A stretch of DNA of 64,000 nucleotides, from the sequence record MK295204; one strand, given 5' to 3'. The notes beneath the pieces are model-generated. The model was not told the origin of the DNA. It did no database searches and saw only the letters and a list, made by a program, of their open reading frames with translations. Positions 47,506 through 52,609 of this stretch are shown here, one piece after another (position 1 is the first letter of the stretch; every line of letters starts with the position of its first letter). Made by a program: the position numbers and the translations under genes. The stretch comes from Shigella phage vB_SdyM_006.

Positions 47506-48228
47506 TTATTTAAATTCGATAAAGTTACAATGTTTGCCTTTAAAAGATTCATGGATTTCTTCAGTTAAAGATTTCTCACGTAATTCAATATCTTTTTTGA
47601 TATTAGTATGTTCTAAACGAGCTTTAAGTTTTCTTTGTGCAATCTTTTTAGGGATATAATCACAGAATAGCCAAACACCGCCAACAATAATGACAAACAC
47701 AAGACAACATACAACTGCAAATAGAATAGCACCTAGAATATAAGCACCGATTGTTAATCCAGTTCCAAGAGTAATACCATAATAAGTAAGAATATTAATT
47801 AATGCTGTTCCACCTAAAGAACCAAAAGCACCACATAAAGCAGCAATAAGGAATGTAAAGAACAAACTTCGACCTAATAAATTCCAGAAATACCCACAGA
47901 TGCTTTTTGGCATACTAGCTTTAGGTGTAATTAATTTAGTTAATTTATAGTGCCAAGTATCTTTTTTAATTTCAATTTTCGGTGCAACAGAAGATAATCT
48001 GATGTCAACAATATCATTACCCCAGATATGATACTCATTATCAATAACTTTAAAATCTGTATTAACAATATAGCCATTTGAAAATACAAAGATATCGTGT
48101 TTATTAGATTTAGCGAGTTCAATTAAATTATTTGCAATTATAGATGCTTCTTCTTTAGTGGCCCATTCAGAATTAATACGGTGCCATTTAGGAGTTTCGG
48201 TATTAATTAAAAGTTCAATAGTATACAT
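47506..48228 (-). CDS. hypothetical membrane protein
   Basis: 240 aa; central Gly/Ala-rich transmembrane block (FFTFLIAALCGAFGSLGG...VFVIIVGGVWL). Confidence 0.35.
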   Translation of the reverse strand: MYTIELLINTETPKWHRINSEWATKEEASIIANNLIELAKSNKHDIFVFSNGYIVNTDFKVIDNEYHIWGNDIVDIRLSSVAPKIEIKKDTWHYKLTKLITPKASMPKSICGYFWNLLGRSLFFTFLIAALCGAFGSLGGTALINILTYYGITLGTGLTIGAYILGAILFAVVCCLVFVIIVGGVWLFCDYIPKKIAQRKLKARLEHTNIKKDIELREKSLTEEIHESFKGKHCNFIEFK

Positions 48229-48446
48229 TATATTTCCTTAAAAGAGTTTAGTAAAGCTTTAAATCTACGAAGTTCATCAATATCTGCACCAGAAGTTATA
48301 ACACCACTAAATTCAAAAGCATAGTCAAATTCGTCTTTATATTTGTGTTGAATTAAAACTGTTTGACGACGATTTAACGGTCCATAATTAATAATGCGTT
48401 TTGTTCTAACAGGAACACCTTCGGTAATTTCAGTTTTTATTTCCAT
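48228..48446 (-). CDS. hypothetical protein
   Basis: 72 aa, ATG start. Confidence 0.3.
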   Translation of the reverse strand: MEIKTEITEGVPVRTKRIINYGPLNRRQTVLIQHKYKDEFDYAFEFSGVITSGADIDELRRFKALLNSFKEI

Positions 48447-48708
48447 CTCGGTTCTCTAGCTCTGTCTCTGGTAAACAAGAAATGCCAGAAGAAGCGTTTT
48501 GATATGAGGCCATGACCCAACATGTCACTTTATACTCAGAATCTTTAATTTTAAAAATAGTTGGCTCATACTCAAACTTGTACCAGCCGGATTTAGATTT
48601 AAGGCTGATTGATGTTGTCTTTACATCTAAGACATCTAATGTTTTTTGTTTATCTTCGGCATAAGCACTAACAGATAAAGCAACTAACAAAGCAATTAAG
48701 TACTTCAT
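48430..48708 (-). CDS. hypothetical secreted protein
   Basis: 92 aa; MKYLIALLVALSVSAYA signal peptide. Confidence 0.35.
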   Translation of the reverse strand: MKYLIALLVALSVSAYAEDKQKTLDVLDVKTTSISLKSKSGWYKFEYEPTIFKIKDSEYKVTCWVMASYQNASSGISCLPETELENRDGNKN

Positions 48709-48915
48709 TTAAAGCCCTTTATTCTTAATAAAATGAGTATTCCATGTATTTGAATTGAATGCCCAGATTAAAATAGCAAGCCATCCAAAAACAGTCCATC
48801 CAAAAACAAAGTTAGCAATAAAAATAGAAGTCTTTGCACAATGATCTCTGTACCATGCCACAAAGAATGGTAAAAAATAAACAACAACTAAAGCTATCAG
48901 AGTTAAAAGTTCCAT
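48709..48915 (-). CDS. hypothetical membrane protein
   Basis: 68 aa, hydrophobic. Confidence 0.3.
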   Translation of the reverse strand: MELLTLIALVVVYFLPFFVAWYRDHCAKTSIFIANFVFGWTVFGWLAILIWAFNSNTWNTHFIKNKGL

Positions 48916-49110: not shown

Positions 49111-49296
49111 TTAACCTCTATCTTTTAAAGATTGACGACGTTGGTCGTATTGATATTCTTGAACAAGACGTTCTATTTGTGACTGTGACAGAACTACACA
49201 ATCATGACCTTGGTCTAGCATATACGAACCAGATTCGGTAGATGTTACTCTTACATCTAAGTTTCTGTTTTTATTATCAACCAAATAAAAATGCAT
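49111..49296 (-). CDS. hypothetical protein
   Basis: 61 aa, ATG start. Confidence 0.3.
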   Translation of the reverse strand: MHFYLVDNKNRNLDVRVTSTESGSYMLDQGHDCVVLSQSQIERLVQEYQYDQRRQSLKDRG

Positions 49297-49422
49297 TAAT
49301 CCTCCAGAAACTGCTTTTTATGTTTTTGTTTACGATTTGAATCTTGTTCACATTTCTTTTTATCTTTGTGAACTGAAGCACGATTAAAGTCGTGTTTAGC
49401 TACAAAATTATTTTGTTTCATA

Positions 49423-49686
49423 TTACCTCAACTGTGAGTCTTTAGAACCACGTCTGTTGTAATAAGATGTGGTTATAATATCATGACTTTCTTGACAAGT
49501 ACAACAATAATTACAATTTTTTATTATTTGTCTACGACGTTCAGGGATCTCTTCACCACAATCAAGACAGTATATATCATTATTTGAAGAAGAATTGAGC
49601 AGGCTTAACCTGGCCCACTCAATAGCATCTTTTATGATAGCTTCTTTAGTTGCAAAACTATCATCTGAAGGACCCCATCCGTTCAT
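49423..49686 (-). CDS. DksA/TraR-like C4 zinc-finger protein
   Basis: 87 aa; CLDCGEEIPERRRQIIKNCNYCCTCQ resembles DksA/TraR C4 finger. Confidence 0.4.
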   Translation of the reverse strand: MNGWGPSDDSFATKEAIIKDAIEWARLSLLNSSSNNDIYCLDCGEEIPERRRQIIKNCNYCCTCQESHDIITTSYYNRRGSKDSQLR

Positions 49687-50001
49687 TTAAGCACCTATAA
49701 AAACCATCATTGCAGCAATAAGAACATTTTCATGAGAAGCCGATAAATCAAAAGTAAATGTAGTAGGGCCTACATGTTTAAGATTTTTATACGCAGCTGG
49801 GTTAAGATGTTCTTCAAAATTAATAGAAATATTGTGTTTGCTCATAATAGGTAAAGCTTGTTCAACGTTAAAACACGGATTAAAAATAATCCAAGAATCA
49901 CGAAGACGGATTTCAAAATTGTGCTTAAAGCAAACCACTTCCAGGCCTAATTTTTCTGCTACTTTTTTATTAAGATAAAATACATTTTCTGCACTAATCA
50001 T
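49687..50001 (-). CDS. hypothetical protein
   Basis: 104 aa, ATG start. Confidence 0.3.
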   Translation of the reverse strand: MISAENVFYLNKKVAEKLGLEVVCFKHNFEIRLRDSWIIFNPCFNVEQALPIMSKHNISINFEEHLNPAAYKNLKHVGPTTFTFDLSASHENVLIAAMMVFIGA

Positions 50002-50570
50002 TTCTGCACCATAAAATTGTAAATAAATCGATAAACATCATCAGGGTTTTTCTGTTCCCAGATATCTAATTTTGGCTCATGGGAGACAATCTTCTGATAA
50101 TGATTGTGCACATTTAAATGATTTTGATGAAGCCAATTAACAAATGCTTGGCCAATTCGCTGAGTACCCTTATCAGCTTCTTTATCCCAATACATGTACC
50201 AATCATGCATGTCACAGTAATTTAAAAGTTTAGGGATGTCTTTTTGAAGAGAATCAATAAATTTTTGTTTTTCATGCGCAGATAATGCTTCGTAATCATC
50301 AAGAGTCATTGTGGGCTCACATTTTGTATTGCTGAATTTTAAAGCATCTACATACATATTAAAGGCTTTAACATTTTTATTTCCATTAAAACCTAAATCA
50401 TCAATGCAGACGGTTTTGACTTGTAGGTTATTAGTCAGAACAGAAATACTTCTGTTAGATGGATTCCAATGACTAACAACTTCATATTCAATAACATTTT
50501 TATTTTGGCCTGAAACACCAACATAAAACTTTTTACCGATATTTAAATCAGTCAGTTTAATACTAGACAT
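49998..50570 (-). CDS. hypothetical protein
   Basis: 190 aa, ATG start. Confidence 0.35.
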   Translation of the reverse strand: MSSIKLTDLNIGKKFYVGVSGQNKNVIEYEVVSHWNPSNRSISVLTNNLQVKTVCIDDLGFNGNKNVKAFNMYVDALKFSNTKCEPTMTLDDYEALSAHEKQKFIDSLQKDIPKLLNYCDMHDWYMYWDKEADKGTQRIGQAFVNWLHQNHLNVHNHYQKIVSHEPKLDIWEQKNPDDVYRFIYNFMVQK

Positions 50571-50573
50571 AAA

Positions 50574-50738
50574 TCACCGTTTAAAGTTTTTAGAATGATA
50601 AGATTTATCTTGAGCAACTGGTAAGTCAAGAACGTCAGAAATACCAATTTTAGCTGGGCGAGCTGTCAGCCTATCTTGGACATCAACTTTCTTTTCAAAC
50701 TGACCAGCTAACAGGTAATATAAACGATCATTAGACAT
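50574..50738 (-). CDS. hypothetical small protein (not in ORF track, 54 aa)
   Basis: Hand-translated MSNDRLYYLLAGQFEKKVDVQDRL...; ATG with GGAGAG Shine-Dalgarno. Confidence 0.25.
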   Translation of the reverse strand: MSNDRLYYLLAGQFEKKVDVQDRLTARPAKIGISDVLDLPVAQDKSYHSKNFKR

Positions 50739-50803
50739 AATTCTCTCCATTTGTTTTAATGAGGCTATACTATTACAAAATATAGCCTTTGTACACTTAT
50801 TTT

Positions 50804-51226
50804 TTAGATTTTTTCAAAACCTGATTCGTCGCAATCATTTTCATCATAAAACACGGTGTACCCAAGTTTTATCATAGCTTGTAGAGTAGCATTCATGATA
50901 TCAATATTTTCTTCAGAATGGTTCATATTTAAATAAACATAAGCAGAATCACCTGTATGCTCTTTATACTCGTCTTCATTAATTGTCACAACAAAAATAG
51001 ATTTTGGTGATTTGTTTCGTGTAAAATACAGTCGAAAGCACTCTAAATTGTAAGCAATAAGTTCACAAATGGAATTAGTTTTATTTCTCACATTTAAAGA
51101 TTCAAATGAATCTTTAAAAATAGATGAATTTAATTCTTTAGATTCTAAATTGATGCAATCAATAATATCGTTTACTGCTTTGATTTTATCATCACAAAGA
51201 ATCAAAGCTCTAGAACACATTCCCAT
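50804..51226 (-). CDS. hypothetical protein
   Basis: 140 aa, ATG start. Confidence 0.3.
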   Translation of the reverse strand: MGMCSRALILCDDKIKAVNDIIDCINLESKELNSSIFKDSFESLNVRNKTNSICELIAYNLECFRLYFTRNKSPKSIFVVTINEDEYKEHTGDSAYVYLNMNHSEENIDIMNATLQAMIKLGYTVFYDENDCDESGFEKI

Positions 51227-51227
51227 T

Positions 51228-51839
51228 TTATTGTCCCTCTACTTTTTTAGTCATGGAATCAAAAACTAAACCAACACTTTCATTCAAAACAGATTTTAAA
51301 GAATTAAACATCTGTCCATCATTCATATGACTCAACCGATCATAAGCGACCCAACCTGCATCATTAGTAAATGTACCCCATTCAGATTCAAAAAATGCAC
51401 GAACTTTCTCGATTTCTTCTTTAGTTGGCACTTTTAATCCAACAAAAGTGTCTTCTAATTTTTGTTCCAAGTTACGAGACGTTTCTCTGTATACTGCTTC
51501 TAAAGAACCAATAAGAATTGACGGATCACGAGTATACGCTAAAGCTTCTTCATAAGTATAAAATGAAAAGTGATTATTGTAACGAGAACGATCAGGATTA
51601 GGCATAATGATGTTCATATCTTGTAAAGAACGCTTAACAATTTGGTCTGGGTCATAAGGCGATTTACAATCTACCCACCAGGCCCATGCCTCAGTATATC
51701 TGAATTTTTCATTGTATGGCAAAGAAACAACGGTCAATTTAACTGCATTATTAATATTAGAACCACTAATAGTTTGACCATACCCAACATAAAAAGTAAA
51801 TCCAGGAACAAGGTCTTCAAACTTAACATTCTTAATCAT
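51228..51839 (-). CDS. hypothetical protein
   Basis: 203 aa, ATG start. Confidence 0.35.
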   Translation of the reverse strand: MIKNVKFEDLVPGFTFYVGYGQTISGSNINNAVKLTVVSLPYNEKFRYTEAWAWWVDCKSPYDPDQIVKRSLQDMNIIMPNPDRSRYNNHFSFYTYEEALAYTRDPSILIGSLEAVYRETSRNLEQKLEDTFVGLKVPTKEEIEKVRAFFESEWGTFTNDAGWVAYDRLSHMNDGQMFNSLKSVLNESVGLVFDSMTKKVEGQ

Positions 51840-51916
51840 GATAATTCTCCTTTGATTTGATAAAGCTTATAATATCATAGACCAAGGCAAAGTAAACAAT
51901 TATTTTCATTTAAAAC

Positions 51917-51941
51917 CAAAAAAGGAACCTTTTGGTTCCTT
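51917..51941 (-). terminator. intrinsic terminator hairpin overlapping stop codon
   Basis: aaaaaaggaaccttttggttcctt; U-run on minus; same stem as 63721-63746 element. Confidence 0.55.
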
Positions 51942-52314
51942 ATGATAACGATAACAAATACTTAGTCTTTTTACAAAGTGTCATAATTTCATCTAATGCA
52001 GATTGTCCTGCACTACAAGTCGAGTCGTAGATTTCTTCTCCTAAAGAAATTATTTTATCTAATATTTCTGTAGATGATTCTATTTTTGTTGGGAAATTTC
52101 TAGTGTAAGCACCACCACTCCCTAGATATATCTCAACAAATGTGTCTATTAATTCTGGCATATCTTCATAGAAATCTTCATATACTTTATGATGCGCATA
52201 GCTTTTTGTTTCGAAGTGATATGAGTGCATGTAAGAAGAACTTATTAAACATAATCCAATAAATTCACTATGCCTTGTAGACTTGGGTTTTACAAACGTA
52301 GAAAAATCATTCAT
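51940..52314 (-). CDS. hypothetical protein (rI.-1 position)
   Basis: 124 aa, ATG, overlaps rI stop. Confidence 0.3.
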   Translation of the reverse strand: MNDFSTFVKPKSTRHSEFIGLCLISSSYMHSYHFETKSYAHHKVYEDFYEDMPELIDTFVEIYLGSGGAYTRNFPTKIESSTEILDKIISLGEEIYDSTCSAGQSALDEIMTLCKKTKYLLSLS

Positions 52315-52609
52315 CGTGTACTAATTCCTTTTTAAGATTGTATACGTATTCTTGTGCTGCTGTTTTGCCATCTTCACTACATTTGTTATTTTGACAGTTT
52401 GTTTCTTCCCATTTGGTTCTAATGAAAGCATAAAACTGCTCAGATTCTTCTTTAGAAGGTTCTTTCAATTTACTGTACACAGACATGGCACCTTCAGCGT
52501 ATACATTAAAATATTTATCGTCTGATGCATACGCGCTAGAAAACCCAATGCATAGTGTTAAAACACATGCAATTATGCCAGGTGAAAAGTAATTTTTGAA
52601 CTCGGCCAT
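52307..52609 (-). CDS. rI: lysis-inhibition regulator rI-like (signal-anchored periplasmic protein)
   Basis: 100 aa; N-terminal hydrophobic anchor GIIACVLTLCIGFSSAYA; EQFYAFIRTKWEE resembles remembered rI segment; located just 5'-distal of tk as in T4. Confidence 0.5.
   Translation of the reverse strand: MAEFKNYFSPGIIACVLTLCIGFSSAYASDDKYFNVYAEGAMSVYSKLKEPSKEESEQFYAFIRTKWEETNCQNNKCSEDGKTAAQEYVYNLKKELVHDE

What the first reader, a model, noticed from the sequence alone, without database searches (positions are those of the whole stretch)
49423..49686. DksA/TraR-type zinc-finger protein in the accessory region
CLDCGEEIPERRRQIIKNCNYCCTCQ matches the DksA/TraR C4 finger. These proteins bind the RNA polymerase secondary channel, so it is a candidate modulator of host transcription.
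Basis: partly seen in the sequence, partly recalled or inferred. Interest (0 to 1): 0.3.

Follow-up and report, generated by a model that had tools for sequence, protein, structure and literature searches.

The report
YbiI-type DksA/TraR zinc-finger phage gene
This is a real 87-residue zinc-finger gene of a T4-like Proteus phage that belongs to the DksA/TraR family of RNA-polymerase-binding proteins (YbiI branch); public databases already label it this way, so the finding is correct but ordinary.

Summary
Window 49423..49686 (minus strand) is an 87-aa ORF with a ribosome-binding site, and the quoted peptide is its residues 40-65. It also matches PHROG_54 (2.6e-18), the solved E. coli YbiI structure 2KGO over its full length (9e-12) and TraR (2e-3). 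An AlphaFold model finds YbiI, TraR-in-RNAP and DksA as top PDB folds.

The window is 99.8% identical to Proteus phage phiP4-3, where RefSeq already calls this gene 'DksA-like zinc-finger protein'. Homologues occur in 586 phage records. In T4-like phages the gene sits in the variable rI-to-nrdC.11 slot, which in T4 holds no homologue.

Two refinements matter. The protein belongs to the YbiI branch, not to TraR proper. It keeps the TraR residues that bind the channel entrance (I47, P48, E49, R51, R52). It lacks the DxxDxA tip motif needed for TraR activity. It carries a C-terminal tail, YNRRGSKDSQLR, that is nearly invariant across the subfamily and absent from TraR.

Binding to the RNA polymerase secondary channel is the best inference, but it is untested. 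Interest is low.

The parts
49423..49686 (-). CDS of the 87-aa YbiI-type DksA/TraR zinc-finger protein (equivalent to phiP4-3 KNT81_gp227, YP_010093723.1); stop codon at 49423..49425
49597..49686 (-). Residues 1-30. The N-terminal MNGWGPSDD segment has G3 97% and W4 82% conserved. It is followed by a long helix (AF2 H11-30), the counterpart of the TraR N-terminal helix that enters the secondary channel. There is no DxxDxA motif.
49495..49569 (-). Residues 40-64: the C4 zinc knuckle C40-x2-C43-x17-C61-x2-C64 with the IPExRR motif (I47, P48, E49, R51, R52). These equal TraR I44, P45, E46, R48, R49, which contact the rim helices and beta'Si3. The extra cysteines C58 and C62 are specific to the Proteus-phage clade.
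49426..49461 (-). Residues 76-87: the C-terminal tail YNRRGSKDSQLR. It is about 100% conserved across phage and bacterial YbiI-type proteins, absent from TraR, and predicted disordered (pLDDT about 50).
49692..49696 (-). Shine-Dalgarno-like AGGTG, 5 nt upstream of the ATG. The upstream gene's stop codon abuts the ATG.
   Evidence: sequence read directly
51869..51897 (-). Candidate T4-early-type promoter GTTTAC-17-TATTAT (with an upstream TG) that could drive the leftward unit containing the gene. This is a consensus match only.
   Evidence: pattern not significantly enriched in the window
51922..51941 (-). Terminator-like hairpin AAGGAACCAAAAGGTTCCTT followed by a T-run. It closes the preceding unit just upstream of the candidate promoter.

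Best explanation
The ORF encodes a small zinc-binding protein of the DksA/TraR superfamily, specifically the YbiI branch. It is carried as a non-core, probably prereplicative gene by a T4-like Proteus phage (phiP4-3, Bragavirus). Shown here: family membership, the C4 knuckle, a TraR-like fold made of one long N-terminal helix plus a zinc globule, purifying selection, and wide distribution in T4-like and jumbo phages of Gammaproteobacteria. Inferred: like TraR and lambda Orf73, it docks on host RNA polymerase. In this model the IPExRR surface sits on the beta' rim helices and beta'Si3 at the mouth of the secondary channel, and the N-terminal helix runs down the channel. That would change initiation kinetics and/or exclude host DksA and Gre factors, diverting RNAP from host ribosomal promoters to phage genes without ppGpp. 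The acidic DxxDxA tip is replaced by a conserved Gly-Trp tip, and an invariant basic tail is added. The effect on RNAP may therefore differ from that of TraR: weaker, blocking only, or using the tail as an extra contact.
For: Family assignment:
- Pfam PF01258 scores 29.7 bits against a gathering score of 24.9.
- PHROG_54 'DksA-like zinc-finger protein' matches at 2.6e-18 over residues 7-78.
- NCBIfam PRK11019 (YbiI) aligns end to end, 3-87 to 4-88, at 71.6 bits.
- PDB YbiI 2KGO matches at 9.4e-12 over the full length; TraR 5W1S/6N57 match at about 2e-3.

Structure:
- The AF2 model has pLDDT 73.7, with helix 11-30, a zinc knuckle and a short helix 62-70.
- Foldseek top hits are YbiI, TraR in RNAP complexes (TM 0.55-0.58), then DksA.

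RNAP-contact residues:
- TraR P45, E46, R48 and R49 are kept as P48, E49, R51 and R52. I47, P48 and R51 are invariant and R52 is 94% conserved in the subfamily.
- The roles of these residues come from PMC9239242 and PMC6970531.

Function of relatives:
- All five phage TraR homologues tested bound RNAP, including two with imperfect DxxDxA motifs.
- YbiI rescued a dksA auxotrophy when overexpressed; the data were not shown.

Selection and distribution:
- dN/dS is 0.10.
- Hosts of the 586 phage records are mostly named Gammaproteobacteria, the group whose RNAP has the Si1/Si3 insertions TraR uses.
- In a jumbo Yersinia phage the homologue lies two genes from a sigma-factor gene.
Against: The DxxDxA tip motif is absent. 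TraR D3 aligns with G5, D6 with D8, and A8 with S10. Only 2 of 72 complete subfamily members have any DxxDxA upstream of the finger. D3 and D6 are required for TraR and Orf73 activity. Other intermediate-length C4 proteins lacking the motif do not act like DksA.

[quoted passage not shown] The tip therefore cannot sit in the same way.

The most conserved element, the tail, has no counterpart in TraR or DksA. Scores fall below the NCBIfam cut-offs for YbiI (71.6 against 96), the TraR subfamily (42.7 against 59.7) and DksA. No experiment on any YbiI-type protein beyond the 2009 remark turned up in the library.
Confidence: 0.6

Rival explanations
1. It binds RNA polymerase at the secondary channel but acts only as a plug. 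Lacking the catalytic-site-directed acidic tip, it would have little intrinsic effect on initiation. It would instead displace host DksA, GreA and GreB, as Rnk does, and so blunt the host stringent response or Gre-dependent rescue during infection.
For: The rim-helix and Si3 contact residues are conserved while DxxDxA is lost. [quoted passage not shown] Rnk sets a precedent for a channel binder that only competes.
Against: YbiI reportedly complements a dksA auxotrophy, which implies DksA-like activity rather than mere blocking (data not shown, and only on overexpression). X. bovienii Gp34, which lacks D3, still regulated transcription, although weakly.
Confidence: 0.2
2. YbiI-type proteins have a primary target other than RNA polymerase. 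The invariant disordered tail YNRRGSKDSQLR would be a linear motif that binds another highly conserved host component, or a nucleic acid. The zinc knuckle would be only a scaffold inherited from the DksA/TraR fold.
For: The tail is about 100% conserved across phage and bacterial members, while the N-terminal helix region is about 58% conserved. It always ends the protein. It has no counterpart in TraR or DksA and no match in the PDB other than YbiI. [quoted passage not shown] Some C4 proteins of this superfamily do not act on RNAP.
Against: No alternative partner is suggested by any result. Bacterial gene neighbourhoods are uninformative. The TraR RNAP-contact residues are invariant, which is unexpected if RNAP were not a target.
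Confidence: 0.15
3. It is a non-functional or chance ORF, or a generic zinc ribbon mislabelled by a short motif match.
For: The Pfam domain is only 36 positions long and the match is modest, at 29.7 bits.
Against: There are full-length matches to YbiI and PHROG_54. dN/dS is 0.10. The gene has 586 phage records and 382 cluster representatives at E<=1e-10. It has a Shine-Dalgarno sequence and tight operon packing. The fold search agrees.
Confidence: 0.02

Closest known systems
E. coli YbiI (PDB 2KGO; NCBIfam PRK11019), an uncharacterised DksA/TraR-family C4 protein of the Fur-regulated fiu-ybiX-ybiI locus
   Same: The length is the same (87 against 88 aa) and the alignment runs end to end (E=9.4e-12, 38-39% identity). 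Both have the N-terminal Gly-Trp, the C4 spacing, the IPxxRR motif and an identical C-terminal tail YNRRGSKDSQLR.
   Different: The score is below the NCBIfam equivalog cut-off (71.6 against 96). The phage clade has its own N-terminus (MNGWGPSD, against MAxGWAxDGAVQ in bacteria). The Proteus-phage proteins carry two extra cysteines. The gene is phage-borne in an early-gene cluster rather than in an iron-regulated host operon.
F-plasmid TraR and its tested phage homologues (lambda Orf73, P2 Orf82, VHML Orf8, VP882 Orf61, X. bovienii Gp34)
   Same: Both have a single N-terminal helix, a C4 globule and a short C-terminal helix. C4 spacing is identical (CxxC-x17-CxxC). The RNAP-contact residues P45, E46, R48 and R49 are conserved. 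The model superposes on TraR bound to RNAP. Both are carried on a mobile element of a gammaproteobacterium.
   Different: There is no DxxDxA motif (D3 becomes G5, A8 becomes S10). The protein is 3 residues longer at the N-terminus. P43 and K50 are not kept (E46 and Q53). It has a 12-residue invariant tail that TraR lacks. It scores below the TIGR02419 cut-off. The tested homologues come from temperate phages, a likely prophage and a plasmid, whereas this one is in a virulent T4-like phage.
DksA (E. coli, 151 aa)
   Same: It shares the C4 zinc-finger domain and the superfamily fold.
   Different: It has no two-helix coiled coil, no DxxDxA tip and no ppGpp-site residues. NCBIfam DksA scores 10.4 bits against a cut-off of 105.

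Membership tests
DksA/TraR C4 zinc-finger superfamily (Pfam PF01258) | Profile match at or above the curated gathering score | tested here: met
   29.7 bits against 24.9, E=6.5e-7, residues 39-68
DksA/TraR C4 zinc-finger superfamily (Pfam PF01258) | Four cysteines spaced CxxC-x17-CxxC | tested here: met
   C40, C43, C61 and C64 align with TraR C37, C40, C58 and C61. All four are invariant or 97% conserved.
DksA/TraR C4 zinc-finger superfamily (Pfam PF01258) | Fold: long helix packed on a zinc globule | tested here: met
   AF2 model with pLDDT 73.7. Foldseek top hits are 2KGO, 6N57_M, 5W1S_M, then DksA.
YbiI subfamily (NCBIfam PRK11019) | Score at or above the NCBIfam equivalog cut-off | tested here: not met
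   71.6 bits against a cut-off of 96, although the alignment is end to end (3-87 to 4-88)
YbiI subfamily (NCBIfam PRK11019) | Invariant C-terminal YNRRGSKDSQLR and N-terminal Gly-Trp (hallmarks derived here from the alignment) | tested here: met
   The tail is identical to E. coli YbiI. 75 of the 150 best representatives end with the motif, and many of the rest are fragments. G3 is 97% and W4 82% conserved.
TraR-type RNAP regulators (as defined in PMC9239242) | DxxDxA motif at the tip of the N-terminal helix | tested here: not met
   The aligned residues are G5..D8..S10. Only 2 of 72 subfamily members have the motif.
TraR-type RNAP regulators (as defined in PMC9239242) | Arg pair equivalent to R48/R49 in the globular domain (rim helices, beta'Si3) | tested here: met
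   R51 is invariant and R52 is 94% conserved. P48 (TraR P45) is invariant; E49 (TraR E46) is kept here and is 71% conserved in the subfamily.
TraR-type RNAP regulators (as defined in PMC9239242) | C-terminal helix that contacts beta Si1 | tested here: inconclusive
   The model has a short helix at 62-70, but its sequence is poorly conserved (0.40). It is followed by a different, disordered tail.
TraR-type RNAP regulators (as defined in PMC9239242) | NCBIfam TIGR02419 (TraR family) cut-off | tested here: not met
   42.7 bits against 59.7, covering residues 18-67 only
TraR-type RNAP regulators (as defined in PMC9239242) | Direct binding to RNAP and ppGpp-independent regulation of initiation | not testable with these tools
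   This needs biochemistry. The only related datum is the unpublished YbiI complementation remark.
DksA proper | About 150 aa with a two-helix coiled coil and ppGpp-site residues | tested here: not met
   The protein has 87 aa and a single N-terminal helix. NF033459 scores 10.4 bits against 105.

The most novel reading that the evidence does not exclude
YbiI-type proteins may form a functionally distinct branch of the DksA/TraR fold. Their decisive element would be the invariant, intrinsically disordered C-terminal peptide YNRRGSKDSQLR together with the Gly-Trp tip, not an acidic tip. They would act on RNA polymerase, or on another conserved host machine, in a way not yet described. T4-like and jumbo phages would have kept this branch for a host-takeover step absent from T4 itself.
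Probability: 0.25. Interest if true: 0.5.

Novelty: already known. Interest (0 to 1): 0.2.

Why it matters
T4-type phages depend on the host RNA polymerase throughout infection, and they are known to remodel it with AsiA, MotA, gp55/gp33 and ADP-ribosylation. A secondary-channel factor has not been described for them in the literature I could search. If this widespread accessory gene does bind RNAP, it would add one more layer of host-transcription takeover in many therapeutic-candidate phages of Klebsiella, Acinetobacter, Proteus and Erwinia. It would also give a function to E. coli YbiI, which has a solved structure but no known role. As it stands, the finding only confirms an existing database annotation.

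Tried and rejected
- **YbiI literature.** The first search was swamped by ytterbium(III) chemistry. Refined searches found only regulon listings and the 2009 remark. Nothing turned up on DksA-like genes of T4-like phages.
- **Bacterial gene neighbourhoods.** Two YbiI-type genes (P0041, P0043) gave no conserved partner.
- **Tail motif.** A PDB sequence search with the tail returned only YbiI.
- **Defence systems.** PADLOC models gave no match for the gene or its neighbours.
- **Early-promoter pattern.** GTTTAC-N15-19-TAWWAT gave 3 matches in the window against about 0.9 expected, and 6 of 100 shuffles did as well. The promoter at 51897 is therefore only a candidate. Generic sigma-70 promoter counts equal the shuffled expectation.
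- **ArfA idea.** I tested whether the downstream 41-aa basic ORF resembles ArfA. BLASTP gave E=0.39, so this is rejected.
- **Shared N-terminal domain.** I tested whether ORFs 49998..50570 and 51228..51839 share one. BLASTP gave E=12, so this is rejected.
- **Internal hairpin.** The terminator-like hairpin inside the CDS (49623..49594) has a poor T-run, and I regard it as chance.

Full report
**Observation.** The window carries an 87-codon ORF at exactly 49423..49686 on the minus strand, with an ATG start and a TAA stop.
- Reading the minus strand shows an AGGTG Shine-Dalgarno sequence 5 nt before the ATG. The upstream gene's stop codon abuts the ATG, and the next gene starts 1 nt after the stop. 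The ORF is therefore part of a tightly packed leftward operon.
- The short ORFs on the opposite strand are only 31-34 aa.

**The named test.** Pfam PF01258 (zf-dskA_traR) matches residues 39-68 at 29.7 bits, above the curated cut-off of 24.9 (E=6.5e-7).
- PHROG_54 'DksA-like zinc-finger protein' matches residues 7-78 at 2.6e-18.
- In NCBIfam the best model is PRK11019, the YbiI equivalog. It aligns end to end (3-87 to 4-88) at 71.6 bits, below its cut-off of 96.
- The TraR subfamily model TIGR02419 gives 42.7 bits (cut-off 59.7) over residues 18-67 only. The DksA model gives 10 bits.
- Against solved structures, E. coli YbiI (2KGO) matches over the full length at 9.4e-12. F-plasmid TraR (5W1S, 6N57) matches at about 2e-3.

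**Source and prior annotation.** The window is 99.8% identical to Proteus phage phiP4-3 (Straboviridae, Bragavirus).
- RefSeq NC_055737 already annotates this gene (KNT81_gp227) as 'DksA-like zinc-finger protein'. The original GenBank record calls it hypothetical.
- tblastn finds homologues in 586 phage records. Most are T4-like and jumbo phages of Klebsiella, Acinetobacter, Erwinia, Escherichia, Aeromonas, Enterobacter, Serratia and Proteus, and many are already labelled DksA/TraR or YbiI.

**Genomic context.** The gene lies in the leftward prereplicative-type block nrdD - 49 - nrdC ... nrdC.11 ... imm-like ... this gene ... rI.-1 - rI - tk - vs - regB - denV - e.
- The same placement, between rI/tk and nrdC.11, is seen in Pm5461 (Bragavirus), Klebsiella phage KP179 (Jiaodavirus) and Acinetobacter phage AM101 (Lazarusvirus).
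- T4 fills that slot with the mobD.x ORFs and has no homologue there (tblastn found no hit at E<=10). 'Accessory' is therefore accurate.
- A terminator hairpin (51941..51922) is followed by GTTTAC-17-TATTAT (51897..51869), a plausible T4-early-type promoter for the unit. The pattern is not statistically enriched, so this is only a candidate.
- In the jumbo Yersinia phage fHe-Yen9-04 the homologue lies two genes downstream of a sigma-factor gene.

**Anatomy and conservation.** I aligned 33 relatives plus E. coli YbiI and TraR.
- Invariant positions are C40, C43, I47, P48, R51, C61 and Q65. R52 and C64 are nearly invariant.
- The finger is C40-x2-C43-x17-C61-x2-C64, the same spacing as TraR C37/C40/C58/C61.
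- C58 and C62 are extra cysteines peculiar to the Proteus-phage clade.
- From the HMMER alignment, functionally mapped TraR residues correspond as follows:

| TraR | This protein | Kept? |
|---|---|---|
| P45 | P48 | yes |
| E46 | E49 | yes |
| R48 | R51 | yes |
| R49 | R52 | yes |
| P43 | E46 | no |
| K50 | Q53 | no |
| D6 | D8 | yes |
| D3 | G5 | no |
| A8 | S10 | no |

- The residues TraR uses on the beta' rim helices and beta'Si3 (PMC9239242, PMC6970531) are therefore retained.
- The DxxDxA tip motif is not retained. Among 72 complete subfamily representatives, only 2 have any DxxDxA within 40 residues upstream of the finger.
- The N-terminus instead carries a conserved Gly-Trp (G3 97%, W4 82%).
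- The most conserved part of the protein is the last 12 residues, YNRRGSKDSQLR. Mean column conservation is 1.0 there, against 0.70 for the finger and 0.57-0.59 for the N-terminal parts.
- The tail is identical in E. coli YbiI and absent from TraR. In the profile search it ends the protein in nearly every member whose match reaches the last profile position (3671 representatives at E<=1e-3, 382 at E<=1e-10).
- A PDB search with the tail returns only YbiI.

**Selection and origin.** Against the Pm5461 orthologue (93.6% nucleotide identity, 5 amino-acid differences), dN/dS is 0.10.
- Named phage homologues are 53-67% identical to the query, and bacterial ones 39-49%.
- The phage clade has its own N-terminal signature (MNGWGPSD). 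The gene therefore looks like an old phage lineage rather than a recent capture from the host.

**Structure.** AlphaFold2 with the alignment gives pLDDT 73.7.
- Residues 1-10 are non-helical. Helix 11-30 follows, then the zinc knuckle, short helices at 49-54 and 62-70, and a low-confidence tail (pLDDT about 50).
- Foldseek against the PDB returns YbiI (9.5e-5), TraR bound to RNAP (6N57_M at 5e-4; 5W1S; TM 0.55-0.58), then DksA and DksA2.

**What is known.** TraR and five phage homologues bind RNAP and regulate initiation without ppGpp. Lambda Orf73 raises phage yield.
- D3 and D6 are required for activity. By analogy with DksA, they are not required for binding.
- Homologues with imperfect motifs (Gp34 lacking D3, Orf82 lacking A8) bind as well as TraR but act more weakly.
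- Some intermediate-length C4 proteins that lack DxxDxA do not act like DksA.
- For YbiI, the only functional statement I found is that overexpression rescues the amino-acid auxotrophy of a dksA mutant. The data were not shown, and the authors thought an iron-related role more likely.
- Other papers list ybiI only as part of the Fur-regulated fiu-ybiX-ybiI locus.
- Two bacterial YbiI-type loci from other lineages show no conserved neighbours.
- I found nothing on such genes in T4-like phages.

**Interpretation.** Shown: this is a real, selected gene for a YbiI-branch member of the DksA/TraR zinc-finger superfamily, with a TraR-like fold.
- Inferred, at about 0.6: it docks on host RNAP at the secondary channel through the conserved IPExRR surface and the N-terminal helix, and so alters host transcription early in infection.
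- TraR residue S2 already lies 4.3 A from the catalytic Mg, and this protein is 3 residues longer with a Gly-Trp-Gly-Pro start. Its tip must therefore sit differently.
- Together with the missing aspartate and the added invariant tail, this leaves room for two rivals. One is a pure channel plug that excludes DksA and Gre factors (about 0.2). The other is a different primary target engaged by the tail (about 0.15).
- A chance or mislabelled ORF is effectively excluded.

**Verdict.** The result matches the existing RefSeq and PHROG annotation, so the novelty class is 'already known' and interest is low (0.2). The useful additions are the subfamily assignment (YbiI rather than TraR), the absent DxxDxA motif and the invariant C-terminal tail. 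These define concrete mutants for a simple biochemical test.

Noticed in passing
window 49296..49421 (-): A 41-aa, very basic ORF (DUF7230 at 50 bits; phrog_1359) starts 1 nt after the zinc-finger gene's stop. Its GAGG ribosome-binding site lies inside the last codons of the invariant tail. It looked ArfA-like by eye, but BLASTP gave E=0.39.
   Followed up: partly
window 49687..50001 (-): The gene immediately upstream is a P22 NinX-like protein. PF10765 scores 23.5 bits, just above its cut-off of 22.6, and phrog_444 matches at 2.9e-20. Its function is unknown.
   Followed up: no
window 48430..48708 (-): A 92-aa ORF with a signal-peptide-like N-terminus (MKYLIALLVALSVSAYA) fills a gap left unannotated in RefSeq NC_055737, between gp222 and gp223. 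It has no Pfam match.
   Followed up: partly
window 51940..52314 (-): This is the homologue of T4 rI.-1. RefSeq labels it 'starvation-inducible transcriptional regulator', here and in T4. Pfam sees only DUF5856 (82 bits), so I found no support for the label here.
   Followed up: partly
window 52307..52609 (-) and 48709..48915 (-): These are an rI antiholin (PF24205, 107 bits) and a 68-aa superinfection-immunity (Imm) protein (PF14373, 54 bits). Both flank the accessory cluster.
   Followed up: no
window about 50760..50790 (-), intergenic: An inverted repeat, AAGGCTATA...TATAGCCT, lies between ORFs 50804..51226 and 50574..50750. It has no T-run. Pm5461 annotates a promoter in the equivalent gap.
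   Followed up: no
window 49594..49623 (-), inside the CDS: An 11-pair hairpin was flagged as terminator-like within the zinc-finger gene, over the codons for IEWARLSLLNS. Its T-run is weak, so it is probably chance.
   Followed up: no
window 47506..48228 (-): A 240-aa membrane protein (phrog_944, 2.7e-73) has weak, sub-threshold matches to the SAVED-fused 2TM effector domain and to PspB.
   Followed up: no
L010 (Yersinia phage fHe-Yen9-04) 767..2752: In this 354-kb jumbo phage the YbiI-type gene g501 lies two genes downstream of an annotated RNA polymerase sigma-factor gene, g498.
   Followed up: no
L011 (phage T4) 9430..12206: T4 has no YbiI-type gene in the syntenic slot between rI.-1 and nrdC.11. 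The mobD homing-endonuclease gene and the mobD.1-mobD.5 ORFs occupy it instead.
   Followed up: yes
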